Shown piece by piece: positions 12,373-59,395 of a stretch of 64,000 nucleotides of DNA (within the stretch, counting starts at the first letter, position 1; each line of letters opens with the position of its first letter). The notes below the pieces were generated by a model. The model did not search any database. It saw only the letters and a program-made list of their open reading frames with translations, and was not told the DNA's origin. The translations under genes were made by a program, and so were the position numbers. This DNA comes from Oscillospiraceae bacterium (GTDB lineage: Bacteria; Bacillota; Clostridia; Oscillospirales; Ruminococcaceae). The stretch is from NCBI GenBank assembly GCA_045541055.1, contig JAZQIL010000183.1, forward strand, positions 4,878 to 68,877. Direction: 5' to 3'.

Positions 12373-14298
12373 TTAAGCAGTCGGGAGGGAAGCAACCAGA
12401 CCAATCAGGTACTTCAGAATTTCAACGGAGTCAGCACCAGTCAGGTCAGCCTTCTTGGTATCAACAACGTCTTTGGTCTTATTACCAGCGCAGTTTGCAA
12501 CTTCCATCTGGTTTTCATTCAGAGTCTGGTTGTCATAACCTGTGAGATATCTGTTGAGCATAACGATATCAACGAGTTCAACCTTGCCGTTCTGGTTTAC
12601 GTCACCGTAGAGGAGGTCACCATCATCTCCTGATGCAGGAGCCTTGGTTTCTGTAGGTGTTTCCTTGGTTTCTGTAGGTGTTTCCTTAGTTTCAGTAGGT
12701 GTTTCCTTGGTTTCTGTAGGAGTTTCCTTAGTTTCTGTAGGTGTTTCCTTAGTTTCTGTAGGCTTGGTTTCTTCTGTAGCTTCTGTTGTATCTTCGCCGC
12801 CCGGAATCTTGATAGAACCAGCTGTCAGAACGATATCCTTGTAAACGTTCTTGTCATAGTCAGCGAACTTGTAGCCTTCTGTTGCAAATGTAACCTTGTA
12901 AGTAGTGCCAGGTACAAATGTTTCAGCTGTTACGCCTTCCTTCGGAATGAACTGTAACTGTACAGCAGCTGTACCATCAGCAGCCTTGTCATTGCCTTCA
13001 CCGTTGAAGGAAATAGCAATGTCACCAGTGTCGAGGTTCGGCTGAAGTGTACCAATCTTAGCATAACCGCCGCCGTCTACTACATCATAGAGTTCAAACG
13101 GGCAGCTCGGGTCAGAAATTTCCTTGCCATCAATCAGAACCTTGAACTGTACACCATAAGTACCAGGGTCATTGTAAACGTTGATATCAACGTCAACTTC
13201 GTCCTTGCTCATATCAACAGGTGTATATTCTACATCAGCGATATCCCATTCATAGCCCTTGTCATGGCTTGCTTCTGAAGGCTCTACCTTTTCAGTAGGA
13301 GTTTCCTTGGTTTCTGTAGGAGTTTCCTTGGTTTCTGTAGGTGTTTCCTTGGTTTCAGTAGGAGTTTCCTTGGTTTCTGTAGGTGTTTCCTTGGTTTCTG
13401 TAGGTGTTTCCTTGGTTTCTGTAGGAGTTTCTTTAGTTTCTGCCTGAGCATCGCCAACTACGATAGTGATACCAGACATGCTAGCAGGAACAACAACATC
13501 CTTTGTACCTACGTTTACGAAGGAAGAAGTAGTTTTGCCATACTGCTGATGGTCATAGGATTCAGCATAATCTACAGTGTAAACACCGTCTTTGATATCC
13601 TTGTCGAGTTCAATTGTAAATTCTGTTACAGGGAAATCATCGGACTTTGCACCGAGGAATGCAGCAGTATCCTTTGTTGCACCATCGCCCTTACCGGACA
13701 GATTGTACATCCAAATCCAGAGCAGTACTTCAGGACCTGTGTAAGTATCAGCCCATGCCCATTCAGAGCTGTGAACGTATGTGATAGAGCTTGTATTGTC
13801 AGCATATGTGCCTTTTCTTGAATCAACATAGCCAAATGCACTAACAAAGCGGTCTGCTGTAAAGTCACCGGATTTTGCAGTGTAAGTAGCTTCTGCATCA
13901 CCTGCTACAGCCTTGCTGAGGTTTGCACCACTCTGGCCGTCGCCACTGGGGTCATGCTGAATGTGAACGTTCTTGCCGTCAACTTCTACCAGACCGCCAA
14001 CGGACTGTACAGACGGGCTGGAAACATCTGCTACCATGTAAGCATCAATACCGATTTTTGCACCAGCTGCATCTGCTGCGCTTGCAAATGTGATGGTCTT
14101 GCCATCTTCGGAAACTGTGAACTTAGCATCCTGTGCCTTCTTTGTGATTGTGCCGGATACATCATAATAGGAATCCGGATTCACTCTCATAGTAAAAGCG
14201 ATATCGCTTGGACCATAAACAGCAAACGCAGACATTACGCTTGCAGACATACTTGCTACCATTGTGGCAGCTGTCAGTGCAGAAATTACCTTCTTCAT
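12373..14298 (-). CDS. Scaffoldin (ScaA-like): signal peptide, unassigned ~260-aa N-terminal domain, A-type cohesin, C-terminal dockerin
   Basis: Signal peptide MKKVISALTAATMVASMSASVMSAFA and two KETPTET-repeat linkers. The cohesin module is almost identical in sequence to the first two of the 2249-aa protein. Dockerin: GDVNQNGKVELVDIVMLNRYL...GADSVEILKYLIGLV. Confidence 0.88.
   Translation of the reverse strand: MKKVISALTAATMVASMSASVMSAFAVYGPSDIAFTMRVNPDSYYDVSGTITKKAQDAKFTVSEDGKTITFASAADAAGAKIGIDAYMVADVSSPSVQSVGGLVEVDGKNVHIQHDPSGDGQSGANLSKAVAGDAEATYTAKSGDFTADRFVSAFGYVDSRKGTYADNTSSITYVHSSEWAWADTYTGPEVLLWIWMYNLSGKGDGATKDTAAFLGAKSDDFPVTEFTIELDKDIKDGVYTVDYAESYDHQQYGKTTSSFVNVGTKDVVVPASMSGITIVVGDAQAETKETPTETKETPTETKETPTETKETPTETKETPTETKETPTETKETPTEKVEPSEASHDKGYEWDIADVEYTPVDMSKDEVDVDINVYNDPGTYGVQFKVLIDGKEISDPSCPFELYDVVDGGGYAKIGTLQPNLDTGDIAISFNGEGNDKAADGTAAVQLQFIPKEGVTAETFVPGTTYKVTFATEGYKFADYDKNVYKDIVLTAGSIKIPGGEDTTEATEETKPTETKETPTETKETPTETKETPTETKETPTETKETPTETKAPASGDDGDLLYGDVNQNGKVELVDIVMLNRYLTGYDNQTLNENQMEVANCAGNKTKDVVDTKKADLTGADSVEILKYLIGLVASLPTA
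12645..12775. repeat. 21-bp in-frame tandem repeat (about 6 copies) encoding the KETPTET linker
   Basis: The unit ggtttctgtaggtgtttcctt repeats head to tail. Confidence 0.9.
13294..13440. repeat. 21-bp in-frame tandem repeat (7-8 copies) encoding a second KETPTET linker
   Basis: The unit gtaggagtttccttggtttct repeats head to tail. It is the same repeat family as 12645-12775. Confidence 0.9.
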
Positions 14299-14417
14299 AA
14301 CTAATTAATTCCTTTCTGTTTTAGTGGTCAGACGTTTGTCGCCGTCTGCCAGATAAATAATTTTTTTCCTAAGATGTCTCAACAAAAGATGTCAGAATTG
14401 GCGGACATTTTTTAAAA

Positions 14418-15257
14418 TCAAAGGTCAGCTTCTGTAATCATGCCAACAATCAGTTTCAGAACAGACATAGATTCGCTGGAATCCGGCTTGCTGTTGCCAT
14501 TGAAGTCAATGTTCTTGAGACCTTGTTCAGTCAGATTTTCCTTACCCATGATTGCCTTATTGATACTGATAACGTCAAGAATATCTACTTCACCGTTGCA
14601 GTCAGCATCACCTTTCTTACCTGTAGCAGGAGCTACATCTGTAGGCTTCTGTTCGGTAGTATCTTCAGCCTTACCAACAACAACTGCGCCGTTTGTAGAC
14701 TTTACAGCATAACCTGTAATTGTGCCGTCAGCACTCATTGTACCGATGTTGATATCGCTGTTTGCTTTGCCTGAACCGTCATAGGTTTCACGGCTGATAG
14801 CCTGGAACTTAATGTCGTAAGTACCATCTTTTGTGCCGTCTTTTACTTTACCGTTCAGTGTCAGGAACACACCGTCTTTTGTTACCCAGTAAGTGCTGTC
14901 ATCTAATGCAACACCATAAGTAACAGTAACAGTACCGTCTACGGAATAGTCAGCATCAAAAACGGTAACACCTTCAAAGCCTTCTTTTGCAGAAGCACCA
15001 GTATTTACGATTGCACCAGCTTCTGCACCAGTAATTGCAATTGCAGCAGAATCATAGGTCAGTTCAAATTCAACAGCATTCACACCAGCAGCAGGAACAC
15101 CGCTCAAACTAATTGCCATTGTAAAATCAGAGCCCGCAGTTGCTTTCACCTTTTCTCCGCTTACGGTAACAGTGTCAGCAGCAAAAACATTTTGTGCTGC
15201 GATGGTGGTCAACATGGAAACGGCAGCCAAAGCGGCAGCGATTTTCCTTACTCTCAT
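14418..15257 (-). CDS. Adaptor scaffoldin (ScaC-like): signal peptide, one cohesin, one dockerin
   Basis: MRVRKIAAALAAVSMLTTIAAQNVFA, then the cohesin pattern (VKATAGSDFTMAISLSGVPAAGVNAVEFELTYDSAAIAI...GTYDIKFQ). Dockerin: GDADCNGEVDILDVISINKAIMGKENL...FNGNSKPDSSESMSVLKLIVGMI. Start set at the ATG at 15257, preceded by GAAGGAGG. The ORF-track start at 15410 lies inside the predicted promoter. Confidence 0.88.
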   Translation of the reverse strand: MRVRKIAAALAAVSMLTTIAAQNVFAADTVTVSGEKVKATAGSDFTMAISLSGVPAAGVNAVEFELTYDSAAIAITGAEAGAIVNTGASAKEGFEGVTVFDADYSVDGTVTVTYGVALDDSTYWVTKDGVFLTLNGKVKDGTKDGTYDIKFQAISRETYDGSGKANSDINIGTMSADGTITGYAVKSTNGAVVVGKAEDTTEQKPTDVAPATGKKGDADCNGEVDILDVISINKAIMGKENLTEQGLKNIDFNGNSKPDSSESMSVLKLIVGMITEADL

Positions 15258-15381
15258 AATTGTCTTTCCTCCTTCATTTGTTTGGAAACATAAAATTAAA
15301 TCATACGTGTATATAACGGGTGGAAGAACTTCCTTCCCTATTATATTCTGTGACAGGACTGCCCCACATCTACTTATTGTT

Positions 15382-15410
15382 ATTATAGGACAAAATATCA
15401 CATAAGTCAA
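15382..15410 (-). promoter_or_regulatory. Sigma-A-type promoter of the scaffoldin locus
   Basis: On the minus strand, TTGACT (15410-15405), 17-nt spacer, TATAAT (15387-15382). This implies a 5' UTR of about 120 nt. Confidence 0.6.
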
Positions 15411-15730
15411 GAGAATTTCCTACATTTTGTACAAACTTCCAAAAACTTAATACAGCCTTTGTGCATTATGCCGAAACTCATGAATGGCATTTCAGGAAAT
15501 GGAAAAATTTTACCCATCTCAAACATCATATAAAACGTTTTCTGACATTTTGCGGAACATTTTCTCCTGCAATTATTATTATACACTATAATTTTAAAAA
15601 AGTAAATAGTTTTTTCGTTATTTTTTTAAAATCATTGTTTTATACAAATTTCAAGTCAGTAATTCTAAATTTCTCACAAAGGCTGGGATTTTTTAAGGTT
15701 TTTTCAACCTTTTTTCAAGAAAAGAGCTGT

Positions 15731-22491: not shown

Positions 22492-24117
22492 TTAAGCGTT
22501 AAAGTCCGTAATGATACCAACAATATATTTCAGGAGGGTGAGTGCTTCATCAGAATCGGGCTTGCCGTTGCCGTTAAAGTCGATTGCTTTCAAGCCGTTT
22601 TCTGAGAGGTTTTCTTTTCCGAGGATAGCCTTATTGATGGTGATAACGTCTAAGATGTCAATTTCTCCGTTTCCGTCAGCGTCACCTTGTTTGAGTTCTT
22701 CTGTTTTGGGTTCTGAGCCGATTAACTCAAATTTCCGGTTATATTTTTCAGCGTATGCCTGAGCGGTGGAATTTTCATAGCCGTAGATTGTACCGTCAAA
22801 TGTAAGTACAGTAAAACCATTTTCATATTTAAAGCTATTATAAATGCTATCATTCTGAGTACTTTCAATTTCACAGTCAGGATTTTCAAAAGTGACAGCC
22901 TTTAAATCAGGGCAGGAAACAAATGTTAATCCGCCAACTTTTGTCACTGATTTTGGAATGGTCACAGAGGTTAAGTTAGAACACTGAAAAGCATGTACAC
23001 CAATTCTTGTAACACTTTCCGGAATGGTGATTTCTTTTAAAAGACAACTGCTAAAAGAACCAGCCTGAATATTTGTCACAGAATCCGGAATAGTATAGGA
23101 ATCGCCTTCTTTTCCGCAGGGATAGCTAATCAATTCCGTCTTGTCCTTATTGAACAGTACACCATTTTCACTGGAAAGACCTGTATTATTTTCTGAAACA
23201 TGTATTTCCTTTAGATTAAGGCAATTCACGAAAGCATGTACGGCAATACCATATGAAGTCCCCCCTGTTATAGCTATAGTATAAGCTACATACACAGGGT
23301 ATCTGGTAGTCCAAAATATATCGCCTGAAACTTTTGTGATTGTATCTGGAATGGTAACAGAAGTTAAATTCTGGCAATTTTGAAAAGCTGAAGTTTGAAC
23401 TGATTGCACACTGTCAGGAATCCTATATTCTGTTCTCTCACTATTTGGCGGATAAAACAGCAATTCTGTTTTATCTTTGCTGAATAAGACACCATCTTCA
23501 CTTGCGTAAACAGGATTATTTTCAGAAACTTTCACAGAAGCCAGCACGGAATCAACAAATGTATCAGCAAATGCAGTATTACTGATAAATATCACACTGT
23601 CTGGAATTGTCACAGAAGTTAATTTAGAACTAGTAAGTGCTTTACTGCTGATTCTTTTTACAGTATCCGGAATAATGACATCTCCTGTACAGGCTGAACC
23701 ATCAATTAAAATTCCATTCACAATAACAAAAGGATTTTCTTCTTGTTTCGCTTTCAGCCACGGAGTACCAAAAAAAGCTCCTGCTTCAATGGTTGTGATA
23801 CTGTCTGGAAATGTAACAGAAATCAGGTTAGAACAGCGGGAAAAAGCATTCCAGCCAATTTTTGTAACAGGCAACCCATCAATTTCTGCTGGAATTATAA
23901 TTTCTGTCACAGAAGTATCTTTCACACCAGAAATCCAGATACTTTCTATCCGCTCATTTTCAATAGTGCGTTCCCATTGCTTAGAGTAATTGAAAAGTTC
24001 TGTACTATCTTCTGCACTTGCTTCAATGCAAGCACTTTCCTGAACAGGAAGCACAGGAAGAACTGACCCCACCATGCATAAAGCAGATACAAAAGCAAGT
24101 ATTTTTTTCATTTTCAC
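22492..24117 (-). CDS. Secreted BspA-type leucine-rich-repeat protein with a C-terminal dockerin
   Basis: Signal peptide MKMKKILAFVSALCMVGSVLPVLP. Repeated IP.SVT.I...AF..C..LTSVTIP units (LRR_5-like). Dockerin: GDADGNGEIDILDVITINKAILGKENL...FNGNGKPDSDEALTLLKYIVGII. GTG start 7 nt after AGGAGG; an ATG two codons downstream is the alternative. Confidence 0.85.
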   Translation of the reverse strand: MKMKKILAFVSALCMVGSVLPVLPVQESACIEASAEDSTELFNYSKQWERTIENERIESIWISGVKDTSVTEIIIPAEIDGLPVTKIGWNAFSRCSNLISVTFPDSITTIEAGAFFGTPWLKAKQEENPFVIVNGILIDGSACTGDVIIPDTVKRISSKALTSSKLTSVTIPDSVIFISNTAFADTFVDSVLASVKVSENNPVYASEDGVLFSKDKTELLFYPPNSERTEYRIPDSVQSVQTSAFQNCQNLTSVTIPDTITKVSGDIFWTTRYPVYVAYTIAITGGTSYGIAVHAFVNCLNLKEIHVSENNTGLSSENGVLFNKDKTELISYPCGKEGDSYTIPDSVTNIQAGSFSSCLLKEITIPESVTRIGVHAFQCSNLTSVTIPKSVTKVGGLTFVSCPDLKAVTFENPDCEIESTQNDSIYNSFKYENGFTVLTFDGTIYGYENSTAQAYAEKYNRKFELIGSEPKTEELKQGDADGNGEIDILDVITINKAILGKENLSENGLKAIDFNGNGKPDSDEALTLLKYIVGIITDFNA

Positions 24118-26018: not shown

Positions 26019-26043
26019 AATAAAAAACCTCCTTAAAATATAT

Positions 26044-26060
26044 GTATTTCTGAGAAATAC
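26044..26060. promoter_or_regulatory. Perfect 8-1-8 inverted repeat in the pck leader (candidate operator)
   Basis: GTATTTCT-G-AGAAATAC lies between the predicted pck promoter and its RBS. Confidence 0.35.
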
Positions 26061-26084
26061 ACCTGTCAATTTTCTGACATATTT

Positions 26085-26199: not shown

Positions 26200-27420
26200 T
26201 TAAGCATGAAAATCTGTAATTAGACCGACAATATATTTCAGGAGGGTGAGGGCTTCACTGGAATCGGGCTTGCCGTTGCCGTTAAAGTCGATAGCTTTCA
26301 AGCCGTTTTCTGAGAGGTTTTCTTTTCCCATGATGGCTTTATTGATGGTGATAACGTCCAAAATATCAATTTCTCCGTTGCCGTCAGCGTCACCCTGTTT
26401 GAGTTCTTCTGTTTTGGGTTCTGAGCCGATAAGGGCGAATTGATAGCCATATTTTTCGGCATAAGCCTGAGCAGTTGAGCCTTCATAGCCATAAAGTGTG
26501 CCAGTGAATTCACGTTTTTTTGTTTCATTATTCCATCTGTTTGAAAATGTATCTCCATCACCATGCTCATCAATATTACAATCTGGATTTTTTATTATAA
26601 TAGAATCCAAATTTTCACATGTTGAAAATGCACTATACCCAATTTTATTTACGCTTTCTGGAATAGTAATAGAGGTTAAACTAGAACAGTTATCGAATGC
26701 CATTGCTCCAATACTTGTCACATTATCTGGAATTATTATAGAAGTTAAATTAGAACACCCATTGAATGACTCATCTCCAATATTTATTACACTTTCAGGA
26801 ATTGTAATAGAAGTTAAGTTAGAACATCTGGCAAATGCACCAGCTTCAATGCTTATTACACTATTTGGAATAGTATATTCTTTTTCAGCTTTTTTGAGAG
26901 AATACCATACTAATGAAGTTTTATCTTTATTAAATAAAATGTCATCTTCAACAATATAAGCAGTATTATTTTCAGAAACTGTAATAGTTAAATTGGGACA
27001 GTTAGAAAACGCACATCTCCAAATACTTACCACACTATCTGGAATCGTTATAGAAGTCAATTCAGAACAAAATCTGAATGCACCACTTTTAATACCTATC
27101 ACACTATCTGGAATAACTACAGAAGTCAAATTTGAACAATACGCAAATGCATTATATCCGATATTTGTCACAGGAAAGCCATCAATTTCAGCTGGAATGA
27201 CTGCTTCTGTGATTTTCTTATCTGTCACACCAGAAATTTCTACATAATCTGCATATTTTTCATACTTCAGGTTTTCATATGTACCTTCTGTATATTCTAC
27301 ATCTTCTCCCTCTGCATTCGCTGAAATGACAGCACTTTCCTGCACCGGAAGCACCGGCACAACAGCCCCCATCATACATAAAGCCACTAACCCTGCACAA
27401 AATCTTTTGAGTTTCATCAT
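26200..27420 (-). CDS. Secreted BspA-type leucine-rich-repeat protein with a C-terminal dockerin (paralogue of 22492-24117)
   Basis: Signal peptide MMKLKRFCAGLVALCMMGAVVPVLP. Repeated IP.SV..I...AF..CS.LTSI.IP units. The dockerin GDADGNGEIDILDVITINKAIMGKENL...FNGNGKPDSSEALTLLKYIVGLI is almost identical to that of the 541-aa paralogue. Confidence 0.85.
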   Translation of the reverse strand: MMKLKRFCAGLVALCMMGAVVPVLPVQESAVISANAEGEDVEYTEGTYENLKYEKYADYVEISGVTDKKITEAVIPAEIDGFPVTNIGYNAFAYCSNLTSVVIPDSVIGIKSGAFRFCSELTSITIPDSVVSIWRCAFSNCPNLTITVSENNTAYIVEDDILFNKDKTSLVWYSLKKAEKEYTIPNSVISIEAGAFARCSNLTSITIPESVINIGDESFNGCSNLTSIIIPDNVTSIGAMAFDNCSSLTSITIPESVNKIGYSAFSTCENLDSIIIKNPDCNIDEHGDGDTFSNRWNNETKKREFTGTLYGYEGSTAQAYAEKYGYQFALIGSEPKTEELKQGDADGNGEIDILDVITINKAIMGKENLSENGLKAIDFNGNGKPDSSEALTLLKYIVGLITDFHA

Positions 27421-27574: not shown

Positions 27575-28294
27575 TTATTTTCTTAAATACGTTTCAATAT
27601 CTTCTTCTCCCCCTGCCCCTGCAAAAGCAGCATATCTTAAAATTCCTGCTGCATCAGAAGCATTCACAAAACTGTCATGATTCACATCTGCATAATATTT
27701 TTGCATTCGGTTCAGAATTTCTTCACTTCCTGCACCCTGACAGGCCGCATTCACCAGCACTAATGCCGCATCTTGTGCATTTGTGCTTATGTCCCTGTTG
27801 ATATTTCCGTAAGTATACAATGGCATTAAATCTTTCCCGTCTGTAAATATCTGCACCCAGTAAATACCATCTGTACCCTGTGCAACCCCTATTCCAATCG
27901 CTCCAAACGATTCGTGAAGAATGTTGTCACGATGATGTTCTGAATTCATCCAGCCATTTACAACTGCTTGCTCATTCTTAAAACCAGCAGCAATATTTTC
28001 GCCTACTTCCCAGTAAGTACCGCCTAAATCTGTCACTACTGTAAAACCTCTTCTGCCGTCCGGCCGTTCATGAGAAAAATTTTTTACAATTTCCTCCGCC
28101 CGAATCTGTGCAGCCTGATTCAGCAATTCCGATTCAGAAAGCGCATTCAAGCCGTATAAAGCCCTTTGTTCATTGACAAGCATCACAACTTCATCTTTTT
28201 GATTCTGATAAGAATCTTCTGCTTTTACAGGCATCACTGCCAAGCCTGAAAAAAGTACAGCAATCACTGCAATGGCAGCTTGCTTTTTTTTCAT
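27575..28294 (-). CDS. Secreted CAP/SCP-domain protein with a C-terminal dockerin-like module
   Basis: Signal peptide MKKKQAAIAVIAVLFSGLAVMPVKA. CAP-like motifs (VNEQRALYGLNAL, GENIAAGF, VNGWMNSEHHRDNIL, FGAIGIG). C-terminal paired segments: NAQDAALVLVNAACQGAG and DVNHDSFVNASDAAGILRYAAFAGAG. Start set at 28294 after AGGGGTGA. Confidence 0.75.
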   Translation of the reverse strand: MKKKQAAIAVIAVLFSGLAVMPVKAEDSYQNQKDEVVMLVNEQRALYGLNALSESELLNQAAQIRAEEIVKNFSHERPDGRRGFTVVTDLGGTYWEVGENIAAGFKNEQAVVNGWMNSEHHRDNILHESFGAIGIGVAQGTDGIYWVQIFTDGKDLMPLYTYGNINRDISTNAQDAALVLVNAACQGAGSEEILNRMQKYYADVNHDSFVNASDAAGILRYAAFAGAGGEEDIETYLRK

Positions 28295-28338: not shown

Positions 28339-29409
28339 TCAATATCCAAATGCATAATTTGGCGGATTTGTTTCTGTCTCTTTGGTTGTGTCGCCAGTGT
28401 CTGTTTCTTTTTCTTTCAAATATGCTTCTAATGTTCCGTTAAAAGCACCTGAACCATATTCAGCAGCATACTGTAAAACGATAGCTGCATCTTTGGAATT
28501 GACAACATTATCCTGATTCAAGTCAGCAAGATTTCTGATTTTATCCTGTTCTTCCCAGCTAATTTCATAAAGTGTTCCTGCACCGGCATGAGCGGCATAT
28601 ACAAGGATTCTAGCAGCATCTGAGGCATTTACATTACCGTTGCTGTCCACATCGCCCCAGTTTTTAGTTTGAACTGGTTCAGTTGTTTCTTCTGTCGTGG
28701 TTGTTGTTTCTTCTGTTGTGGAAGTCGTTGTAGTTGTAGTCGTTTCTGGTGTCGTGGAAGTCGTTGTAGTAGTTGTTGTTTCCGGTGTTGTGGAAGTCGT
28801 TGTAGTTGTGGTCGTTTCCTCTGTTGTAGTTGTTGTTTCTTCTGTTGTAGTTGTGGTTGTTTCCTCTGTAGTAGTTGTTGTTTCTTCCGGTGTAGTTTCT
28901 GTATATGTTGGTTCAACGTCCTCCCCTGTCGCATCTGCAAAAAGTAAAGCCGCATAATAAAGCCCATTTGAAGCCTTTGTCACACCAACCCCCATGAAAT
29001 TAAATCTCGCATTTATCATTTTGGATTTTTCGGTGGACTGCCCTGCTAAAAAATTATACATCTGGTCAATTGTAGAACACTGCCCCGCAATACTACAAGC
29101 TCCTGCTCCATAATTGATGCCATAATCTTTCATAATAGTCGCACCTATCTGACCATTCGGACGCTTGCTCGAAAATAATTGTAATGCTTCCTGCACTCTT
29201 GCATCTGCCGCTTCCTGCATCAGCGGTGTTGTCTGAAAAGGTGTTAAACCATTCTGTTGACGCAGCTCATTTATCAGTGAAAGCATCTGCTCTTCTTCTG
29301 ATTCATACGCTGCACTGACTGCTAACGGCTCATAAACTGGTGTCATGCTCATGCCAACACTGGAAAGCAATATCCCTGCTGAAAGTAATACAGCTAATTG
29401 TTTCTTCAT
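28339..29409 (-). CDS. Secreted CAP/SCP-domain protein with a Thr-rich linker and a C-terminal dockerin
   Basis: Signal peptide MKKQLAVLLSAGILLSSVG. CAP-like N-domain (LINELRQQNGLTPF..., FMGVGV), then an (E)TTTTT linker. Dockerin: GDVDSNGNVNASDAARILVYAAHAGAG ... DLNQDNVVNSKDAAIVLQYAAEYGSG. ATG at 29409 lies 10 nt after AGGAGG; a TTG two codons upstream is the ORF-track start. Confidence 0.78.
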   Translation of the reverse strand: MKKQLAVLLSAGILLSSVGMSMTPVYEPLAVSAAYESEEEQMLSLINELRQQNGLTPFQTTPLMQEAADARVQEALQLFSSKRPNGQIGATIMKDYGINYGAGACSIAGQCSTIDQMYNFLAGQSTEKSKMINARFNFMGVGVTKASNGLYYAALLFADATGEDVEPTYTETTPEETTTTTEETTTTTTEETTTTTEETTTTTTTSTTPETTTTTTTSTTPETTTTTTTSTTEETTTTTEETTEPVQTKNWGDVDSNGNVNASDAARILVYAAHAGAGTLYEISWEEQDKIRNLADLNQDNVVNSKDAAIVLQYAAEYGSGAFNGTLEAYLKEKETDTGDTTKETETNPPNYAFGY

Positions 29410-29600: not shown

Positions 29601-31082
29601 TTATAATGTATCATTCACACCGACAATATATTTCAGTACTTCCAAAGAGTCTCCAGCATCCGGCGCACCGTTTTTATTCACATCCGCAGAACTGCATTGT
29701 GCTTCTGAAAGTGTTTCCTTGCCGAGGCAAGCTTTATTCAAAACGACTACATCTAAAATGTCTACATTTCCGTCTGTCATGACATCCCCAGGGGCAACTC
29801 CAAGACAGATAAAATAACCAATAGCACTGTGTACAGGGAAATCTTTCAGCTGTTCAGGCGTGACTTCTGCATAAATCTTTCCATTGATGATGTTTCTAAT
29901 TTCAATGCCGTTTTCTCTAAGGCGGTCAGGTTCTGCCTGTGTGAGTTCTTCTCTTAATACGTTGAAATATTTACTTTGTTCCTGCACAATCTGCTGAACC
30001 TGATTTCCAAGTTCTTTGCTGATAGGAGTTTGATTTCTGTCGGCTTCATAGAACATTTCCATAATTTGCGCATAAGTCTGACCGTCCATTTCATGTGAAT
30101 TCAAGAACTGTTCTCTTTCTTCCTGATAGGCTTCACTGTATTCTACATCAGGATACATCTGAATGACAACACCAATTTTCACTTCCGGAAATTCTTCCAT
30201 AATGCCGTTGACAAGTTCACTGCAATCAAATGTCCCAGCATTCGGCACATATTCAGCTGCAATGAAATCATCTATTAAACGTCCGTCATCTGTGATGTAA
30301 GTGCTGTAAGCTGTATTGTTAATAATGCCATATTTGCCCTCATAGTCTCTGAGGTCAGCTACACCCTGATTAAATGTATGTTTTGCTTCTTCCACAGGGT
30401 CATATATTAAAACTGGTGCAAGGGCAATTAAATAGCAAAAATGCGAATTCGCTGGGAAATTTTTAAGCTGTTCTGCTGTGATGTAAGCTTGCTTTTCATA
30501 TAGTCCGGGTTTGGATTCCAGCATTTCAAAGCCATTTTCTTTAAGGCGGTTTTCTTCCTCTGAAAGTTCTTCGCTGATAATATGATTGACATAATTTTTT
30601 GTTTCCTGAAGAACAAATCTTCTTTGAATGGACATTTCTTTATAATTGTCTTCAAATGCCTGTTCTCCTACAGAATTTCTGATTGCTTCTGCTTCCGCCA
30701 TAAATTCCGCATAAGTTTTCCCCTCAATGGTATGTTCCTGCTGGTAAGCGTCTGTTAATTTCTGACGTTCTTCATTGGAATAGTGATAACTTATCCGAAC
30801 AGAAAACTTTGCATCCGGATATAATTCCATAACCTTTTCCAGCAAAGGGGTGAGTTCATAAGTTCCGCCCTTTGCATCAGCGTTTGGAAATCCGCCGTCA
30901 CGACAAGTTTTCAAAGAAAAATATACTAAATTATCTTCCGTGACAGCATGAGATTCTTCCAGCGTGTAGCGATTGTTTACAAGATACTCTGTACTGCTTT
31001 CTGCATCTGCAAAAGTTTTCACATTTGGCATACTGCAAGTTATGAGTGCTAATGCACATAAAACAGAAATGATTTTTTTCAT
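29601..31082 (-). CDS. Secreted dockerin protein of unknown function with an internally duplicated ~190-aa module
   Basis: Signal peptide MKKIISVLCALALITCSMPNVKTFA; AAAGGAGG RBS before the ATG at 31082. Two related modules, for example ...EHTIEGKTYAEFM...RLKENGFEM...ITAEQLKNFP versus ...SHEMDGQTYAQIM...RLRENGIEI...VTPEQLKDFP. Dockerin: GDVMTDGNVDILDVVVLNKACLGKETL...VNKNGAPDAGDSLEVLKYIVGVNDTL. Confidence 0.8.
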   Translation of the reverse strand: MKKIISVLCALALITCSMPNVKTFADAESSTEYLVNNRYTLEESHAVTEDNLVYFSLKTCRDGGFPNADAKGGTYELTPLLEKVMELYPDAKFSVRISYHYSNEERQKLTDAYQQEHTIEGKTYAEFMAEAEAIRNSVGEQAFEDNYKEMSIQRRFVLQETKNYVNHIISEELSEEENRLKENGFEMLESKPGLYEKQAYITAEQLKNFPANSHFCYLIALAPVLIYDPVEEAKHTFNQGVADLRDYEGKYGIINNTAYSTYITDDGRLIDDFIAAEYVPNAGTFDCSELVNGIMEEFPEVKIGVVIQMYPDVEYSEAYQEEREQFLNSHEMDGQTYAQIMEMFYEADRNQTPISKELGNQVQQIVQEQSKYFNVLREELTQAEPDRLRENGIEIRNIINGKIYAEVTPEQLKDFPVHSAIGYFICLGVAPGDVMTDGNVDILDVVVLNKACLGKETLSEAQCSSADVNKNGAPDAGDSLEVLKYIVGVNDTL

Positions 31083-50789: not shown

Positions 50790-50808
50790 CATTGCTTCTT
50801 TTATGAAA

Positions 50809-55520: not shown

Positions 55521-55588
55521 ATGTATAATTTGTGAATAAGTAATGTACGAGTTTTTATATTTTATTTTTAACAATAGGAGGGTTCTCT

Positions 55589-58500
55589 ATGAAATTTAAG
55601 AAAATTTTAGCTGGAATGACTGCTTTACTGTGCTGTACCGGCGCATTGGCTTTCTTCCCTGAATTTACTGAAACCGCTCAGGCCAAAGAAGTTGTAAATA
55701 ATGATTTTGAAATCAGCTATGGCGGCTGGTATGCAAATGAAGATTATATGAATCTTGAAGCTGTCGAACATGCTGGTGTTGACGCTTCTCGTGGTATGCT
55801 CGTAACAGGCCGTCAGAAAGTTTCCGATGGTGCAAGCTCTTCCAAAGGTCTCTATTTATACGGCGGTGTGAATTATCACTACTCTGTGAAAGTGTTCAGC
55901 GAACAAGCTGAAAATTTTAAGCTTTCCCTGTTATGCATCGATGAAAATACCGGTGAAGAAACTGTTACAGAATTAGCTGCTGTTTCTTCCAATGCAGGCG
56001 AATGGACAGAACTTTCCGCTGATTTTAAAGCTCCTAAAAACAGCTATGAATTTAAATTAACCATTACTGCTGACAGTACAAATGATTTCATGTTCGATAA
56101 TGTACAGATTTCTTCTGAAGATTATGAAAGTTTAACTGCTGTTGCTGCTACAACTGAAGCAGGCTTGAAAGACAAGTTTGGAAACTATTTCAGAGTTGGT
56201 AATATTCTCAACGGCGGTACTGTCAAAAATAGTGCTATTATCGCTAATATTCTGAAAGACTGCAATTCCGTGGAATGCGAAAATGAAACAAAACCAGATG
56301 CTACTTTAAACCGCTCTCAGTGCAATGGAACAAATATTGCAGTTTCTTTAAACAGTGCAGCTGCGATTATGGACTTCTGCTCACAGAATGGCATTGGTAT
56401 GAGAGGACATACTTTTGTATGGCACAGCCAGACCCCCGGCTGGTTCTTTAAAGAAAATTTCAGCGATAACGGAAACTGGGTTGACAAAAATACAATGGAT
56501 GCCCGTATGGAAAGCTATATCAAAAACATGTTCGGCGCAATTAAAACACAGTATCCGAATCTGGATTTGTACGCTTATGACGTTTGTAACGAATGCGTTT
56601 CTGACAATGACCAGAGAACCGCCAACAACGGCGGCGCAAGAGAACCCGGCGACAATAACGTAGAAGGCGGTAAATCTGCTTGGGTACAAGTTTATGGTGA
56701 TAACAGCTTTGTGGAAAAAGCGTTTACTTATGCAAGAAAATATGCTCCTGCTGGCTGTGACTTGTATTATAATGACTACAACGAATACTGGGACCATAAA
56801 AGAGATTGCATTTATAATATGTGTAAATCTCTTTACCAGAAAGGCTTATTGGACGGCGTTGGTATGCAGTCCCATGTACCTGCAAATGCTACTGGTTTCG
56901 CCGGAACAGATTCCTATATTGAAGCAATGCATAAATATTTATCTATCGGCTGTGATGTCCAGATTACAGAGTTAGATATTTCCCTCGAAAACGGCAAATA
57001 CAGTCTGCAAGACCAGGCAAACAAGTATAAAGCCATTTTCCAAGCTGCTATGGACTGGAATGCAAATCCCAAATCTGACGGCCGTGTGACTGCTGTCTGC
57101 ATCTGGGGTCCTAATGATGCAAACTCTTGGCTGAAAGCTGGCTCTGATGCATTACTTTATGATAAAAATAATCAGCCTAAATTAGCATATACTACTTTAA
57201 TGAACATGGAAGTAGACGGAAGCACATCTGTAGAAGTAAAACCTGTTGAGCCTAATCAGTATGGCTGGTATTTTGCTGACGGATTTGAAGGCGATTTATG
57301 CGACTGGCAAGGTAGAGGCGCAGCAGATGTTTTAACAAGCGGAAGAACTGCTTTTGTGGGAAATGAATCTTTATTAGTAGAAAATCGTACTGCTGCTTGG
57401 AACGGTGCAGCTAAATCTTTAAGCCCGAGAGTTTTCGTTCCGGGTAATGAATACAGTTTCAGTGCAATTGTCAGCTATTTTGACGGCGACCCCACAGATA
57501 CATTCTATCTGAAATTACAGTATACTGATGCTAACGGCGATACACAATACGCTACTGTAGCAGAAGGCACTGGTGTACAGGGCAAATGGGTTCAGCTTGC
57601 AAATACAAATTATTTAATTCCTTCTGATGCTTCCAATATGCAGCTTTATGTTGAAACTGCTGAAACAACAAATAATTTCTATATTGATGAAGTCATTGGT
57701 GCAGTTGCCGGAACTGGAATTAAAGGTCCTGACCCTGTAGAAATTCCTTCTGCAACAGAAGCCGTTACACCTTCCGGAGACTCCCATAAAGGTGATGTCA
57801 ATCATGATGGTGTTATCAACGTTTATGATTTAATCCTTGCAAAACGTGCATTGCTTAAAGGCGAAAATAATGCTGCTGCTGATGTTGACGAAAGCGGTAA
57901 ACTTGAAGTCGCTGATATTGTTCAGATTCAGAAATTCCTGCTTGGTCAAATTAAAACTTTCACTGTTGTGGAAAAACCTGTGAATCAGGTAGATACTGCT
58001 AAAATGGCACAGTTATTCTCTTCTGTCAGCCCTGTGGCAAGCTACAAAAAAGACGGCGAAGGAAATCCGCTTTACACACAGCGTTTCGGTGCTGACCCTG
58101 GTGTTATGGAATATAACGGCCGTGTTTATGTTTACATGACAGATGACACTATTGAATATGATTCCAATGGTAAGGTAAAAGAAAATGGCTATGGCTTAAT
58201 TAACAGAATTAACTGCATTTCTTCTGATGATATGGTGAACTGGACTGACCATGGTGCAATTCCGGTCGCTGGTAAAAATGGCATTGCAAAATTTGCCAAT
58301 AATTCATGGGCTCCCTGTGCAGCTCACAAAACAATTAACGGAAAAGAAAAATTCTTCTTATACTTCTGCAACGGCGGAAATGGTGTATGCGTTCTGACAG
58401 CAGATTCTCCTACAGGTCCTTGGAGTGACCCGCTTGGAAAAGAATTAGTTACCAGAGCTGTTCCGAACTGCGGTAATATTCCGTGGCTGTTTGACCCAGC

Positions 58501-59395
58501 AGTATTTGTAGATAAAGACGGTACAGGCTATTTAACATTTGGCGGTGGTGTTCCGGACGGAAAACAGGCTATGCCTTCTACTACAAGAGTTGTAAAACTC
58601 AGCAGTGATATGATTCATTTAGACGGTACACCAGCTACAATTGATGCACCTTATGTATTTGAAGATTCCGGCATTAACAGAATCGGCAACAAATATTATT
58701 ATACTTACTGCTCCAACTGGAGTACAGGCGGTAATCAGTACGGCTTATCCAATGCAGGCATTCAATACATGGTATCTGATAATCCTCTTGGTCCGTACAC
58801 TTACGGCGGTGAATTCTTCAAGAATCAGGGTAATTTCTTCCCTGGCATGACTGGAAACAATCATCATTCTATCGTAGAATTAAATAATCAGCTGTATCTG
58901 TTCTATCATTCCCGCCCTGTAGAAAAAGCTATGGGCATTGACGGCAACTACAGAAGCCCTCAGGTTGATAAAATTACCATGAACGGCGATAAAATTGCTT
59001 CTGTCACAGGTACAATGGCTGGTATCGCTCAACTGAAAAAAGTAAATCCTTACGCTGTAAATCAGGCTGAAGCAATGTCTAATCAGTCCAAAGATATTTC
59101 TGTATTCGGTTTAGGTGATACTACTGTGAACTTCAAGAAGGGCAGCTGGATGAAAGTTTCCGGTGTAGACTTCTCCAAGGGCGCAAAAACTTTAACTATT
59201 AAAGCTTCTTCCACAAGCGGTGCAGCTGTGAAGGTTTGCACAAAGCTTACTGGTGATGCAGTCGCTTATGCTGAAATTCCTGCTGGTGGTATGACTGAAA
59301 TTTCCGTACCAGTAACAGGTTCTATCAGCGGAAGCAATGACTTATACTTCTTGTTCAGCGGAGACGCTGCATTTGATGCATGGTCTTTTTCATAA
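55589..59395 (+). CDS. Multidomain cellulosomal xylanase/arabinofuranosidase-type enzyme: CBM22-like, GH10, CBM22-like, dockerin, GH43, CBM6-like
   Basis: Signal peptide. GH10 motifs GHTFVWHSQTPGWF, YDVCNE and ITELDI. Internal dockerin GDVNHDGVINVYDLILAKRALL...VDESGKLEVADIVQIQKFLLG (about 57791-57950). GH43 motifs FGADPGVMEYNGRVYVY, WAPCA and FEDSGI. C-terminal CBM6-like module ending DAWSFS. Confidence 0.9.
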   Translation: MKFKKILAGMTALLCCTGALAFFPEFTETAQAKEVVNNDFEISYGGWYANEDYMNLEAVEHAGVDASRGMLVTGRQKVSDGASSSKGLYLYGGVNYHYSVKVFSEQAENFKLSLLCIDENTGEETVTELAAVSSNAGEWTELSADFKAPKNSYEFKLTITADSTNDFMFDNVQISSEDYESLTAVAATTEAGLKDKFGNYFRVGNILNGGTVKNSAIIANILKDCNSVECENETKPDATLNRSQCNGTNIAVSLNSAAAIMDFCSQNGIGMRGHTFVWHSQTPGWFFKENFSDNGNWVDKNTMDARMESYIKNMFGAIKTQYPNLDLYAYDVCNECVSDNDQRTANNGGAREPGDNNVEGGKSAWVQVYGDNSFVEKAFTYARKYAPAGCDLYYNDYNEYWDHKRDCIYNMCKSLYQKGLLDGVGMQSHVPANATGFAGTDSYIEAMHKYLSIGCDVQITELDISLENGKYSLQDQANKYKAIFQAAMDWNANPKSDGRVTAVCIWGPNDANSWLKAGSDALLYDKNNQPKLAYTTLMNMEVDGSTSVEVKPVEPNQYGWYFADGFEGDLCDWQGRGAADVLTSGRTAFVGNESLLVENRTAAWNGAAKSLSPRVFVPGNEYSFSAIVSYFDGDPTDTFYLKLQYTDANGDTQYATVAEGTGVQGKWVQLANTNYLIPSDASNMQLYVETAETTNNFYIDEVIGAVAGTGIKGPDPVEIPSATEAVTPSGDSHKGDVNHDGVINVYDLILAKRALLKGENNAAADVDESGKLEVADIVQIQKFLLGQIKTFTVVEKPVNQVDTAKMAQLFSSVSPVASYKKDGEGNPLYTQRFGADPGVMEYNGRVYVYMTDDTIEYDSNGKVKENGYGLINRINCISSDDMVNWTDHGAIPVAGKNGIAKFANNSWAPCAAHKTINGKEKFFLYFCNGGNGVCVLTADSPTGPWSDPLGKELVTRAVPNCGNIPWLFDPAVFVDKDGTGYLTFGGGVPDGKQAMPSTTRVVKLSSDMIHLDGTPATIDAPYVFEDSGINRIGNKYYYTYCSNWSTGGNQYGLSNAGIQYMVSDNPLGPYTYGGEFFKNQGNFFPGMTGNNHHSIVELNNQLYLFYHSRPVEKAMGIDGNYRSPQVDKITMNGDKIASVTGTMAGIAQLKKVNPYAVNQAEAMSNQSKDISVFGLGDTTVNFKKGSWMKVSGVDFSKGAKTLTIKASSTSGAAVKVCTKLTGDAVAYAEIPAGGMTEISVPVTGSISGSNDLYFLFSGDAAFDAWSFS

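What the first reader, a model, noticed from the sequence alone, without database searches (positions are those of the whole stretch)
12373..59395. Ten dockerins in one window fall into at least four sequence classes, giving a testable wiring diagram
**Classes read from the translations.**
1. GDAD(G/C)NGE(I/V)DILDVI(T/S)INKAI(L/M)GKENL...FNGN(G/S)KPDS: the ScaC-like protein and both LRR proteins.
2. ...DILDVVVLNKACLGKE.. / ..NIVDVIAVNKNVLGKE.., ending LE(V/I)LKY(I/V)VG(V/L)N(D/E)TL: the 493-aa and 256-aa unknowns.
3. N(G/D)..VN(A/S)(S/K)DAA..L.YAA..G(A/S)G pairs: both CAP-domain proteins and the X-dockerin of the giant scaffoldin.
4. Singletons: the ScaA-like protein (GDVNQNGKVELVDIVMLNRYL) and the xylanase (GDVNHDGVINVYDLILAKRALL).

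**Established knowledge.** Dockerin sequence groups in R. flavefaciens correlate with cohesin specificity.

**Inference.**
- Class 1 probably targets the A-type cohesins.
- The ScaA-like dockerin probably targets the B-type cohesins.
- Class 3 cargo would compete with, or sit beside, the giant scaffoldin on the cell-wall anchor.
Basis: partly seen in the sequence, partly recalled or inferred. Interest (0 to 1): 0.6.

Follow-up and report, generated by a model that had tools for sequence, protein, structure and literature searches.

The report
Cellulosome dockerin classes and wiring
The window holds the scaffold genes and seven cargo genes of a Ruminococcus flavefaciens-type cellulosome from an uncultured rumen bacterium; its ten docking modules fall into four genome-wide families whose likely partners follow the known R. 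flavefaciens plan, so it is a divergent but ordinary member of a known system.

Summary
All ten dockerins are real. Nine pass Pfam Dockerin_1. The tenth is the X-dockerin of the 2249-aa scaffoldin at 5593-5940, outside the stated coordinates.

I clustered 138 full-length dockerins (142 dockerin ORFs in the genome); the ten fall into four families.
It also holds the GH48 and all seven GH9 cellulases.
- **Family III** (24 members, symmetric) holds both CAP proteins and the X-dockerin.
- **Family IV** (6 members) holds the xylanase, which is therefore not a singleton.
- **The ScaA-like dockerin** is a true singleton.

Class 1 is a subclade of 29 within Family I. It differs from the rest in the calcium loops and linker, while the consensus of both helices is the same.

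Predicted wiring:
- ScaA dockerin to B-type cohesins. Both modules match the solved complex 5N5P.
- Family III to a ScaE-like anchor found on another contig. The family profile matches the ScaH dockerin of 8AJY.
- Family I to A-type cohesins, whose cohesin fold AlphaFold2 and Foldseek support. This link rests on analogy and elimination.
- Family IV to the ScaC-like cohesin, which is the weakest link.

No binding was tested. Verdict: new member of a known kind, modest interest.

The parts
5593..5940 (-). X-dockerin of the ScaB-like giant scaffoldin (aa 2109-2224). Family III, X-dockerin subtype with a ~50-aa insert. Lies outside the finding's coordinates.
   Evidence: Translation. Matches 4IU2_B CttA X-dockerin at 2.2e-6. 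Clusters in Family III. Coordinates.
5950..6417 (-). X module preceding the ScaB-like dockerin
   Evidence: The match to 4IU2_B/4WKZ_A spans aa 2063-2177. The same NFYFSHD...YIGVKGD motif occurs in the CttA-like ORF on C162.
6439..6870 (-). Terminal, divergent B-related cohesin of the ScaB-like protein
   Evidence: jackhmmer domain at 1812-1955 of the 2262-aa stop-to-stop frame, about aa 1799-1942 of the protein. Pfam Cohesin match below the cut-off (21.8 bits, E 5.6e-4).
7306..10989 (-). Eight tandem B-type cohesins of the ScaB-like protein; predicted sockets for the ScaA-like dockerin
   Evidence: Pfam Cohesin. Eight domains by jackhmmer. Residues 429-550 match 5N5P_A (CohScaB5) at 4.1e-6.
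11086..12144 (-). Two A-type cohesins at the N-terminus of the ScaB-like protein
   Evidence: 80-86% identical to the ScaA-like A-type module. The fold of that module is a cohesin.
12376..12606 (-). ScaA-like dockerin (aa 565-641); singleton in the genome; group-5-like
   Evidence: Pfam 23.4 bits. Matches 5N5P_B at 3.9e-6. Own cluster.
12784..13311 (-). A-type cohesin of the ScaA-like protein; predicted socket for Family I dockerins
   Evidence: AlphaFold2 pLDDT 91.4. The Foldseek top 50 are all cohesins or cohesin-like modules, best 5N5P_A at 1.2e-9. hhalign against B-type gives 98.6%.
13423..14226 (-). Enlarged cohesin-like N-terminal module of the ScaA-like protein (268 aa); partner unknown
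   Evidence: AlphaFold2 pLDDT 91.7. Foldseek top hits are cohesins (5LXV_C at 2.1e-5), but TM is only 0.40/0.59.
14421..14612 (-). Dockerin of the ScaC-like adaptor; Family I, IDFN subclade
   Evidence: Pfam; clustering and tree.
14664..15182 (-). ScaC-like cohesin (type I-like); predicted socket for Family II/IV dockerins
   Evidence: Matches 5LXV_A Scaffoldin C at 2e-28. Pfam Cohesin 54 bits.
22495..22686 (-). Dockerin of the 541-aa BspA-type LRR protein; Family I, IDFN subclade
   Evidence: Pfam LRR_5 plus Dockerin_1; tree.
26203..26394 (-). Dockerin of the 406-aa BspA-type LRR protein; Family I, IDFN subclade; 95% identical to the previous one
27611..27808 (-). Dockerin of the 255-aa CAP-domain protein; Family III (symmetric, group-4-like)
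   Evidence: Pfam CAP plus Dockerin_1; cluster; family profile matches 8AJY_B.
28447..28656 (-). Dockerin of the 358-aa CAP-domain protein; Family III
29604..29789 (-). Dockerin of the 510/493-aa protein of unknown function; Family I, outside the IDFN subclade
   Evidence: Pfam; cluster; tree.
32894..33079 (+). Dockerin of the 256-aa protein of unknown function; Family I, outside the IDFN subclade
57791..57961 (+). Internal dockerin of the CBM4_9-GH10-CBM4_9-Doc-GH43-CBM6 xylanase; Family IV (6 members; repeat order swapped relative to Family II)
   Evidence: Pfam; cluster 4; swap statistic.

Best explanation
The window carries the scaC-scaA-scaB scaffoldin cluster and seven dockerin-bearing cargo genes. 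They belong to an R. flavefaciens-type cellulosome in an uncultured rumen Ruminococcus-like bacterium. The ten dockerins belong to four genome-wide sequence families.

The most likely assembly plan copies the FD-1 plan:
1. **Family I to A-type cohesins.** Family I includes the ScaC-like adaptor, both LRR proteins, both unknowns, and elsewhere the GH48 and all GH9 cellulases. It is predicted to plug into the three A-type cohesins, one on ScaA and two on ScaB.
2. **ScaA dockerin to B-type cohesins.** The single ScaA-like dockerin is predicted to plug into the eight B-type cohesins of ScaB.
3. **Family III to ScaE-like cohesins.** Family III includes both CAP proteins and the ScaB X-dockerin. It is predicted to plug into ScaE-like cohesins: a sortase-anchored one on contig C162 and paralogues on adaptor proteins.
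4. **Family IV to the ScaC-like cohesin.** Family IV (the xylanase) and its repeat-swapped relative Family II are predicted to plug into the ScaC-like cohesin.

Shown here: the families, the cohesin fold of the A-type module, and homology of parts of links 2 and 3 to solved complexes. Inferred: every actual pairing.
For: **Families.** An iterative HMM search found 142 dockerin ORFs. Average-linkage clustering of the 138 full-length ones gave families of 63, about 37, 24 and 6 members, plus the ScaA singleton.

**Cargo.** The GH48 and all 7 GH9 carry Family I (against 39), as do four of the five dockerin-bearing GH5 enzymes. Family IV carries GH10 and GH43 enzymes.

**Link 2.** The ScaA dockerin matches 5N5P_B at 3.9e-6. 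A B-type cohesin matches 5N5P_A at 4.1e-6. Several published contact positions are kept: V666 and N669 are identical, and K670R, V662L, I717L and V721I are conservative. N661E and H722G are changed (alignment against PMC5934362).

**Link 3.** The Family III profile matches 8AJY_B (ScaH dockerin bound to ScaE cohesin) at 1.2e-12. The ScaB X-dockerin matches 4IU2_B. On C162, a CttA-like X-dockerin gene is followed by a protein with a signal peptide, a Thr-rich linker and an SPKTG sorting signal. Paralogues of its domain occur on C133 and C173.

**Link 1.**
- The A-type module folds as a cohesin.
- The ScaC-like adaptor and its orthologues in related rumen MAGs always carry a Family I-type dockerin next to scaA and scaB.
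- With B-type assigned to ScaA, the A-type modules are the only confidently identified cohesins left in the cluster.
- FD-1 precedent: ScaC and the cellulases bind ScaA-type cohesins.

**Link 4.** The ScaC-like cohesin matches 5LXV_A at 2e-28. The best R. flavefaciens hit of the xylanase dockerin is the group-3 dockerin 5LXV_B at 1e-4.

**One partner for classes 1 and 2.** Both helix consensus sequences are identical in the two subclades. Differences sit in the Ca loops and linker, plus one position early in the second helix (T in the IDFN subclade, variable in the rest). ScaC orthologues in relatives show intermediate loop types.
Against: - No binding data exist for any pair.
- Family I does not have the FD-1 group 1 signatures (VxIMQxxxNP, ALxIQKxxL, long linker).
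- Family I's profile does not favour group 1 over group 3 among solved R. flavefaciens dockerins: 5LXV_B 1.9e-6 against 5M2S_B 1.1e-5.
- The A-type cohesin has no sequence match to the FD-1 ScaA-type cohesin 5M2O_A, only fold similarity.
- The ScaE-like domain has no PDB sequence hit, and its hhalign link to cohesins is inconclusive at 58% over a partial match. Its fold was not predicted.
- The IDFN subclade is well supported (97/96) and has a different cargo bias, so a split specificity is possible.
- ScaA has an extra cohesin-like N-terminal module with no assigned partner.
- ScaC cohesins are known to vary strongly between R. flavefaciens strains (PMC4081043), which weakens link 4.
Confidence: 0.65

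Rival explanations
1. The reader's classes 1 and 2 are functionally distinct. Under this reading the IDFN subclade (ScaC-like adaptor, LRR proteins) binds a different socket from the other Family I dockerins (cellulases, the 510-aa and 256-aa proteins). One candidate socket is the enlarged cohesin-like N-terminal module of ScaA.
For: - The IDFN subclade of 29 is monophyletic with UFBoot 97 and SH-aLRT 96.
- Its cargo is biased towards LRR and small proteins, whereas the GH48 and 6 of 7 GH9 lie outside it.
- ScaA has a second, cohesin-like module without a partner.
- That module is conserved across the ScaA-like family (26-87% identity over 29 homologues).
Against: - With the four defining loop columns removed, the subclade is no longer strictly monophyletic (2 changes).
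- The consensus of both helices is the same in both subclades.
- The subclade also holds a GH9 and a GH5.
- ScaC-like orthologues in relatives carry ADxN or GDLN loops, which are intermediates.
- The N-terminal module's cohesin match is weak (TM 0.40, rmsd about 9 A).
- In FD-1 the equivalent ScaA N-terminal module is listed only as UNK.
Confidence: 0.15
2. The roles of Families I and II are swapped relative to my reading. Family I would bind the type I-like ScaC-like cohesin, and Family II/IV would bind the A-type cohesins.
For: - Among solved R. flavefaciens dockerins, the Family I profile scores best against the group-3 dockerin 5LXV_B, the ScaC partner (1.9e-6).
- Family I has canonical type I length.
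- Its best overall PDB hits are type I dockerins (8X39, 1OHZ_B).
Against: - The ScaC-like adaptor itself carries a Family I dockerin, in this genome and in all relatives examined. An adaptor that binds its own kind would not link anything to ScaA or ScaB.
- Every core cellulase carries Family I, as primary-scaffoldin cargo does in FD-1.
- The 5LXV_B match covers only positions 1-48, and the score differences are small.
- The Family II profile is even more type I-like (CelS dockerin at 6e-13).
Confidence: 0.1
3. The xylanase-type Family IV dockerins bind the primary A-type cohesins directly rather than the ScaC-like adaptor.
For: - In FD-1, the internal dockerins of several multidomain xylanases and esterases are group 1a and bind ScaA-type cohesins (Table S3).
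- Two other GH10 enzymes of this genome carry Family I.
- No evidence here ties Family IV specifically to the ScaC-like cohesin beyond weak similarity to 5LXV_B (1e-4).
Against: - Family IV is only 25-30% identical to the Family I dockerins of the window.
- It is a repeat-swapped relative of Family II: 43% identity in swapped order against 31% in the same order.
- In FD-1, hemicellulases with type I-like dockerins go to ScaC.
Confidence: 0.25

Closest known systems
Ruminococcus flavefaciens FD-1 cellulosome and its six dockerin groups (Rincon 2010, PMC2930009; Israeli-Ruimy 2017, PMC5301203)
   Same: - scaC-scaA-scaB gene order.
- ScaC-type Coh-Doc adaptor.
- ScaA with an unassigned N-terminal module, cohesin(s) and a dockerin unique in the genome.
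- ScaB with ScaA-type cohesins first, then a second cohesin type, then X-dockerin.
- A large symmetric dockerin family on non-enzymatic cargo (LRR and others) plus X-dockerins.
- Cellulases and ScaC share one dockerin family.
- Adaptors combine a ScaE-like cohesin with either kind of dockerin.
- Truncated one-repeat relatives of the symmetric family exist.
   Different: - The main enzyme-borne family lacks all group 1 signatures: it has a short linker, a 12-residue second loop and DILDVIT.NKA..GKE helices.
- The A-type cohesin has no sequence match to FD-1 ScaA cohesins.
- ScaA has one cohesin rather than two.
- ScaB has 2 + 8 + 1 cohesins rather than 4 + 5.
- cttA and scaE are not downstream of scaB; they lie at the end of another contig.
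- The sorting signal is SPKTG.
- CAP-domain cargo sits on the symmetric family.
DocScaA-CohScaB5 complex, PDB 5N5P (Bule 2018, PMC5934362)
   Same: Both the ScaA-like dockerin and the B-type cohesins match the respective chains by sequence at about 4e-6. The dockerin shares the atypical second half (ANC...DLT..DS..ILK). Several contact residues are kept (V666, N669, K670R, V662L).
   Different: N661, whose alanine substitution lowered affinity about 100-fold, is Glu here. H722 is Gly. There are eight sockets instead of five.
ScaH dockerin-ScaE cohesin complex (PDB 8AJY) and CttA X-dockerin-ScaE cohesin complex (PDB 4IU2/4IU3); FD-1 group 4
   Same: Symmetric repeats (NA.DAA..L.YAA..GAG). The Family III profile hits 8AJY_B at 1.2e-12. 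The ScaB X-dockerin hits 4IU2_B at 2.2e-6. The X module and a long insert are present in ScaB and in the CttA-like protein.
   Different: The candidate ScaE-like cohesin has no detectable sequence similarity to the FD-1 or strain 17 ScaE cohesin, so the receptor side is inferred from gene context only.
ScaC cohesin-group 3 dockerin complex, PDB 5LXV
   Same: The ScaC-like cohesin matches 5LXV_A at 2e-28. The adaptor architecture is identical.
   Different: Similarity of the candidate partner dockerins (Families II and IV) to 5LXV_B is weak and not specific. Family IV has its two repeats in the opposite order.

Membership tests
Pfam Dockerin_1 (PF00404) | Score above the gathering threshold (22.9 bits) | tested here: met
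   Nine of the ten proteins pass. The ScaB X-dockerin does not reach E 0.01 and is recognised only through 4IU2_B and clustering.
R. flavefaciens-type sca cluster | Gene order scaC-scaA-scaB, with a Coh-Doc adaptor, a Coh-Doc primary scaffoldin and a multi-cohesin X-dockerin scaffoldin | tested here: met
   Genes 14418-15410, 12373-14298 and 5515-12264, all on the minus strand. The same order occurs in related MAG loci L005, L008 and L016.
R. flavefaciens-type sca cluster | cttA and scaE directly downstream of scaB | tested here: not met
   Plus-strand genes follow scaB in the window. A CttA-like X-dockerin ORF and a ScaE-like SPKTG protein lie together at the end of contig C162.
FD-1 dockerin group 1 | VxIMQxxxNP in segment c1, ALxIQKxxL in c2, a 37-45-aa linker and a 13- or 11-residue second Ca loop (PMC2930009) | tested here: not met
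   Family I reads ILDVIT.NKA..GKE and L..LKYIVG. Its repeats are separated by the usual short spacer, so the core fits 62 ungapped columns, and the second loop is canonical. No dockerin in the genome shows the group 1 signatures.
FD-1 dockerin group 1 | Carried by the main cellulases and by ScaC | tested here: met
   The GH48, 7 of 7 GH9 and four of the five dockerin-bearing GH5 enzymes (seven GH5 genes in all), plus the ScaC-like adaptor, carry Family I.
FD-1 dockerin group 1 | Binds ScaA cohesins and ScaA-type cohesins of ScaB | not testable with these tools
   Needs a binding assay or complex prediction.
FD-1 dockerin group 4 | Internal symmetry of the two repeats and similarity to the ScaB, CttA and ScaH dockerins | tested here: met
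   Both repeats read NA.DAA..L.YAA..GAG. The profile matches 8AJY_B at 1.2e-12. The ScaB X-dockerin matches 4IU2_B at 2.2e-6.
FD-1 dockerin group 4 | Binds the ScaE cohesin | not testable with these tools
   A candidate ScaE-like protein exists (C162:10266-11369). Its cohesin nature is unproven: no PDB hit and an inconclusive hhalign result.
FD-1 dockerin group 5 (ScaA dockerin) | Single member per genome, located on ScaA, with an atypical second repeat | tested here: met
   It forms its own cluster at every threshold of 0.65 or below. The best PDB hit is 5N5P_B at 3.9e-6, with the same ANC...DLT..DS layout.
FD-1 dockerin group 5 (ScaA dockerin) | Conservation of the published cohesin-contacting residues (N661, V662, V666, N669, K670, V721, H722) | tested here: inconclusive
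   V666 and N669 are identical. V662L, K670R and V721I are conservative. N661E and H722G are changed (alignment).
FD-1 dockerin groups 3 and 6 | Type I-like dockerins on hemicellulases that bind the ScaC cohesin | tested here: inconclusive
   The xylanase dockerin's best R. flavefaciens hit is 5LXV_B at 1e-4, but C. thermocellum dockerins score higher. The Family II profile is not specific. Binding is not testable here.
Cohesin fold (A-type module) | Nine-stranded jelly-roll superimposable on solved cohesins | tested here: met
   AlphaFold2 pLDDT 91.4. All of the top 50 Foldseek hits are cohesins or cohesin-like modules, best 5N5P_A at 1.2e-9 with TM 0.62/0.77. hhalign against B-type cohesins gives 98.6%.

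The most novel reading that the evidence does not exclude
ScaA of this clade may carry two different sockets. The A-type cohesin would take the cellulase-type Family I dockerins. The enlarged, sequence-unrecognisable cohesin-like N-terminal module would take the IDFN subclade (ScaC-like adaptor, LRR proteins).
Probability: 0.12. Interest if true: 0.6.

Novelty: new member of a known kind. Interest (0 to 1): 0.35.

Why it matters
**A testable map for an unstudied clade.** The result gives a concrete cohesin-dockerin map for an uncultured rumen lineage whose scaffoldins are annotated only as hypothetical proteins.

**The architecture is kept while one pair has diverged.** The overall FD-1 architecture is preserved: adaptor, primary scaffoldin, anchoring route and even the kinds of side adaptors. 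Yet the pair that integrates the main enzymes has diverged beyond sequence recognition. That is useful for understanding how cohesin-dockerin specificities evolve, and for mining orthogonal pairs for designer cellulosomes.

**It is not a new kind of system.** A specialist would expect such a plan in a relative of R. flavefaciens.

Tried and rejected
1. **Single-sequence PDB searches.** Searches with individual dockerins and with Family I and II profiles do not discriminate between FD-1 groups 1, 3 and 6. Only Family III and the ScaA dockerin gave specific matches.
2. **Joint clustering with labelled FD-1 dockerins.** This was not possible. The supplements hold only ORF-to-group assignments and primers, not sequences.
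3. **Sequence proof that the C162 ScaE-like domain is a cohesin.** phmmer against PDB found nothing. hhalign against the other cohesin types gave at most 58% over about 43 residues.
4. **Search for the A-type cohesin across the family.** It was found only in the window's own GTDB genus: 24 of 50 genomes in the genus, and none of the 119 genomes sampled from other genera of the family. I did not pursue co-distribution of cohesin and dockerin types, because presence or absence of a cellulosome in related genomes would confound it.
5. **The idea that the xylanase and ScaA dockerins are both singletons.** This holds for ScaA and is false for the xylanase.
6. **First subclade labelling.** My first labelling was off by one column. 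It was corrected and checked without the defining columns.

Full report
**What is in the window**

The window is contig C183:4878-68877 of a 4.42-Mb draft genome. Three consecutive minus-strand genes form a scaffoldin cluster.
- **ScaC-like adaptor (14418-15410).** It has a cohesin and a dockerin. The cohesin matches R. flavefaciens Scaffoldin C (5LXV_A) at 2e-28.
- **ScaA-like protein (12373-14298, 641 aa).** Pfam sees only its dockerin.
- **ScaB-like protein (5515-12264, 2249 aa).** Pfam sees seven cohesin stretches. Its C-terminus matches the CttA X-dockerin 4IU2_B at 2.2e-6.

Seven further genes carry a Pfam dockerin:
- two BspA-type LRR proteins;
- two CAP-domain proteins;
- two proteins with no other recognisable domain (510 and 256 aa);
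- a 1268-aa xylanase with CBM4_9, GH10, CBM4_9, an internal dockerin, GH43 and CBM6.

The tenth dockerin, on the giant scaffoldin, lies at 5593-5940. That is outside the finding's stated range.

**Is it more than chance?**

An iterative HMM search of all open frames found 142 dockerin-bearing frames in the genome. The Pfam scan found 138 matches. That gives 2.06 expected per 64 kb, so ten has Poisson P of about 6e-5. Contig C183 holds the densest cluster in the genome.

**Genome-wide classes**

I placed 138 full-length dockerins in a common 62-column frame and clustered them by identity.

| Family | Members | Signature | Window members |
|---|---|---|---|
| I | 63 | GD.D..GE.DILDVIT.NKA..GKE ... 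D.N..GKPDS.(D/E)SL..LKYIVG.I | ScaC-like, both LRR proteins, both unknowns |
| II | about 37 | clostridial-like (LQKYL...NIYD..LLKK.LL) | none |
| III | 24 | symmetric (NA.DAA..L.YAA..GAG twice) | both CAP dockerins, ScaB X-dockerin |
| IV | 6 | NIYD..AKR.LL then V.DI..IQKFLLG | xylanase |
| ScaA | 1 | own cluster at every distance threshold of 0.65 or below | ScaA-like |

So 'at least four classes' is correct. Two details are not.
- The xylanase dockerin is not a singleton.

**Structure inside Family I**

A maximum-likelihood tree recovers a subclade of 29 with the second loop reading (I/V)DFN. It contains the ScaC-like and both LRR dockerins, with UFBoot 97 and SH-aLRT 96. The two class 2 dockerins fall in the remaining 34.

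Several observations argue that this split does not mark a change of partner.
- When the four defining columns are removed, the label needs two changes on the tree rather than one.
- The column-by-column differences lie in the two calcium loops and the linker, plus one position early in the second helix. The consensus of both helices is the same.
- In related rumen MAGs, the ScaC-like gene upstream of scaA carries ADxN or GDLN loops, which are intermediate forms.
- The subclade also contains a GH9 and a GH5.

I therefore read classes 1 and 2 as one probable specificity, with about 15% left for a real split.

**Mapping onto the published framework**

In R. flavefaciens FD-1 the binding scheme is as follows (PMC5301203; group definitions in PMC2930009):
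- group 1 dockerins bind ScaA cohesins and ScaB cohesins 2-4;
- groups 3 and 6 bind the ScaC cohesin;
- groups 2 and 4 bind ScaE, and also the ScaH and ScaG cohesins;
- the single group 5 dockerin, on ScaA, binds ScaB cohesins 5-9.

Each family here maps as follows.
- **Family III is group-4-like.** It is internally symmetric. Its profile's best PDB hit by far is the ScaH dockerin solved on the ScaE cohesin (8AJY_B, 1.2e-12).
- **The ScaA-like dockerin is group-5-like.**
  - It is a singleton.
  - It matches 5N5P_B at 3.9e-6 with the same atypical second half.
  - A B-type cohesin matches the partner chain 5N5P_A at 4.1e-6.
  - Of the published contact residues, V666 and N669 are identical. 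V662L, K670R and V721I are conservative. N661E and H722G differ.
- **Family I is not group 1 by sequence.** It lacks the VxIMQxxxNP and ALxIQKxxL motifs and the long linker, and no dockerin in the genome has them. It does occupy the same role: it is on the GH48, all seven GH9, four of the five dockerin-bearing GH5 enzymes, and the ScaC-like adaptor.
- **PDB profile searches do not separate group 1 from groups 3 and 6** for Families I and II.

**The cohesin side**

An AlphaFold2 model of ScaA residues 330-505, built from 30 sequences, reached pLDDT 91.4. Its 50 best Foldseek matches in the PDB are all cohesins or cohesin-like modules, led by 5N5P_A at 1.2e-9. hhalign links A-type and B-type cohesins at 98.6%.

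Cohesin counts in the genome:
- three A-type copies, one on ScaA and two on ScaB;
- eight B-type copies plus one divergent terminal cohesin on ScaB.

The 268-aa N-terminal module of ScaA also models confidently (pLDDT 91.7). It retrieves cohesins first, but with poor superposition (5LXV_C at 2.1e-5, TM 0.40/0.59). In FD-1 the equivalent position is listed as UNK.

**The anchor**

No cttA or scaE follows scaB in the window. At the end of contig C162 there is a truncated ORF with an X-dockerin closely resembling that of ScaB. Directly after it comes a 368-aa protein with a signal peptide, a ~195-aa domain, a Thr-rich linker and an SPKTG sorting signal with a membrane span and a basic tail. This is the expected cttA-scaE pair.

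The ~195-aa domain has paralogues on two other proteins:
- C133, which also carries a Family III dockerin (1e-82);
- C173, which also carries a Family I dockerin (6e-10).

These mirror the FD-1 ScaH-type adaptor and the FD-1 'ScaE-like' adaptor with a group 1b dockerin. Sequence alone could not show that the domain is a cohesin.

**Most likely wiring**

1. **ScaA dockerin to the eight B-type cohesins.** Best supported, because both partners are homologous to a solved pair.
2. **Family III to the ScaE-like cohesins.** This covers the CAP proteins and the ScaB X-dockerin. The dockerin side is supported. The receptor is inferred from gene context.
3. **Family I to the A-type cohesins.** This covers the ScaC-like adaptor, both LRR proteins and both unknowns, along with the cellulases. 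It is inferred from role equivalence with group 1, from ScaC-like orthologues always carrying this dockerin type, and by elimination within the cluster.
4. **Family IV, probably with Family II, to the ScaC-like cohesin.** This is the weakest link. It rests on the cohesin's homology to FD-1 ScaC and on the type I-like character of these dockerins.

Under this plan one ScaB could hold up to eight ScaA molecules. With its own two A-type cohesins, that offers about ten Family I sockets.

**Organism and novelty**

The ScaA-like protein has only unnamed or misnamed homologues from rumen metagenomes. Related loci come from MAGs labelled Ruminococcus sp. UBA3665, UBA7013 and SIG543, and from Oscillospiraceae MAGs sampled from roe deer and water buffalo. 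The A-type cohesin is found in 24 of the 50 genomes of the same GTDB genus and in none of the 119 genomes sampled from other genera of the family.

A 2026 survey already places many such lineages under 'flavefaciens-like' cellulosomes and notes that sequence divergence hides ruminococcal cohesins (PMC13463774). An earlier follow-up in this scan reached the same verdict for the ScaB-like gene.

This is a new, divergent member of a known kind of system. It is of modest interest, chiefly because the enzyme-integrating cohesin-dockerin pair has diverged beyond sequence recognition while the rest of the plan is kept.

Noticed in passing
window 57791-57961; genome C78:11366-14596, C188:1005-4208, C218:6519-9800, C78:22529-25333, C50:51672-54695: Family IV dockerins look like Family II with the two repeats in the opposite order. 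Mean identity to Family II is 43% when repeats are compared crosswise and 31% in the same order. Family II members are 47% identical to each other. All six are internal dockerins. The four whose catalytic domains were mapped here are GH10 and/or GH43 enzymes; the cargo of C78:22529-25333 and C50:51672-54695 was not annotated. A reversed repeat order would present the same helix to a cohesin in a 180-degree rotated orientation.
   Followed up: partly
window 13423-14226 (-): The 268-aa N-terminal module of the ScaA-like protein models confidently (pLDDT 91.7). Its best structural matches are cohesins, but with large insertions (TM 0.40/0.59). It is conserved across the ScaA-like family (26-87% identity over 29 homologues). 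A partial relative occurs in C293:2743-4251, a protein with an X-dockerin-type Family III dockerin.
   Followed up: partly
genome C162:10266-12420 (-), outside the window: A CttA-like X-dockerin ORF, cut by the contig end, is followed by a ScaE-like protein with an SPKTG sorting signal. The cttA-scaE pair therefore exists but is not contiguous with scaB in this assembly. Four other ORFs with a C-terminal sorting-signal layout carry the same motif (C8, C31, C62, C260).
   Followed up: partly
genome C133:22212-25376 (+) and C173:15409-16341 (+): Two adaptor-type proteins combine a ScaE-like domain with a Family III dockerin (C133) or a Family I dockerin (C173). They parallel FD-1 ScaH and the FD-1 'ScaE-like' Coh-Doc protein.
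   Followed up: partly
genome C95:12885-21872 (-): A 2620-aa LRR protein carries a distinct symmetric dockerin (NLKD.VLIRRYI.GGW twice). It sits directly upstream of an LPQTG-anchored protein with a Pfam cohesin related to the ScaC-like cohesin. This looks like a self-contained surface-display pair separate from the cellulosome.
   Followed up: no
genome C50:45633-46922, C287:105923-107278, C16:67205-68683: Three one-repeat dockerins of the Family III type (for example NTKDASWILVYAADLGAGN). They resemble the naturally truncated FD-1 group 2 dockerins, which still bind ScaE.
   Followed up: no
window 24171-26069 (-): A housekeeping-looking gene sits between the two LRR-dockerin paralogues. From the translation it resembles a GTP-dependent phosphoenolpyruvate carboxykinase. 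The dockerin genes therefore do not form one operon. This is my reading of the sequence and was not scanned against a family library.
   Followed up: no
whole genome: At 4.4 Mb in 311 contigs, the genome is much larger than most of the other 49 genomes of its GTDB genus (mostly 1.3-3 Mb; two are 3.4 and 4.2 Mb). Estimated contamination is 3.6%. Some counted dockerins could in principle come from a second organism, although the families are internally coherent.
   Followed up: no
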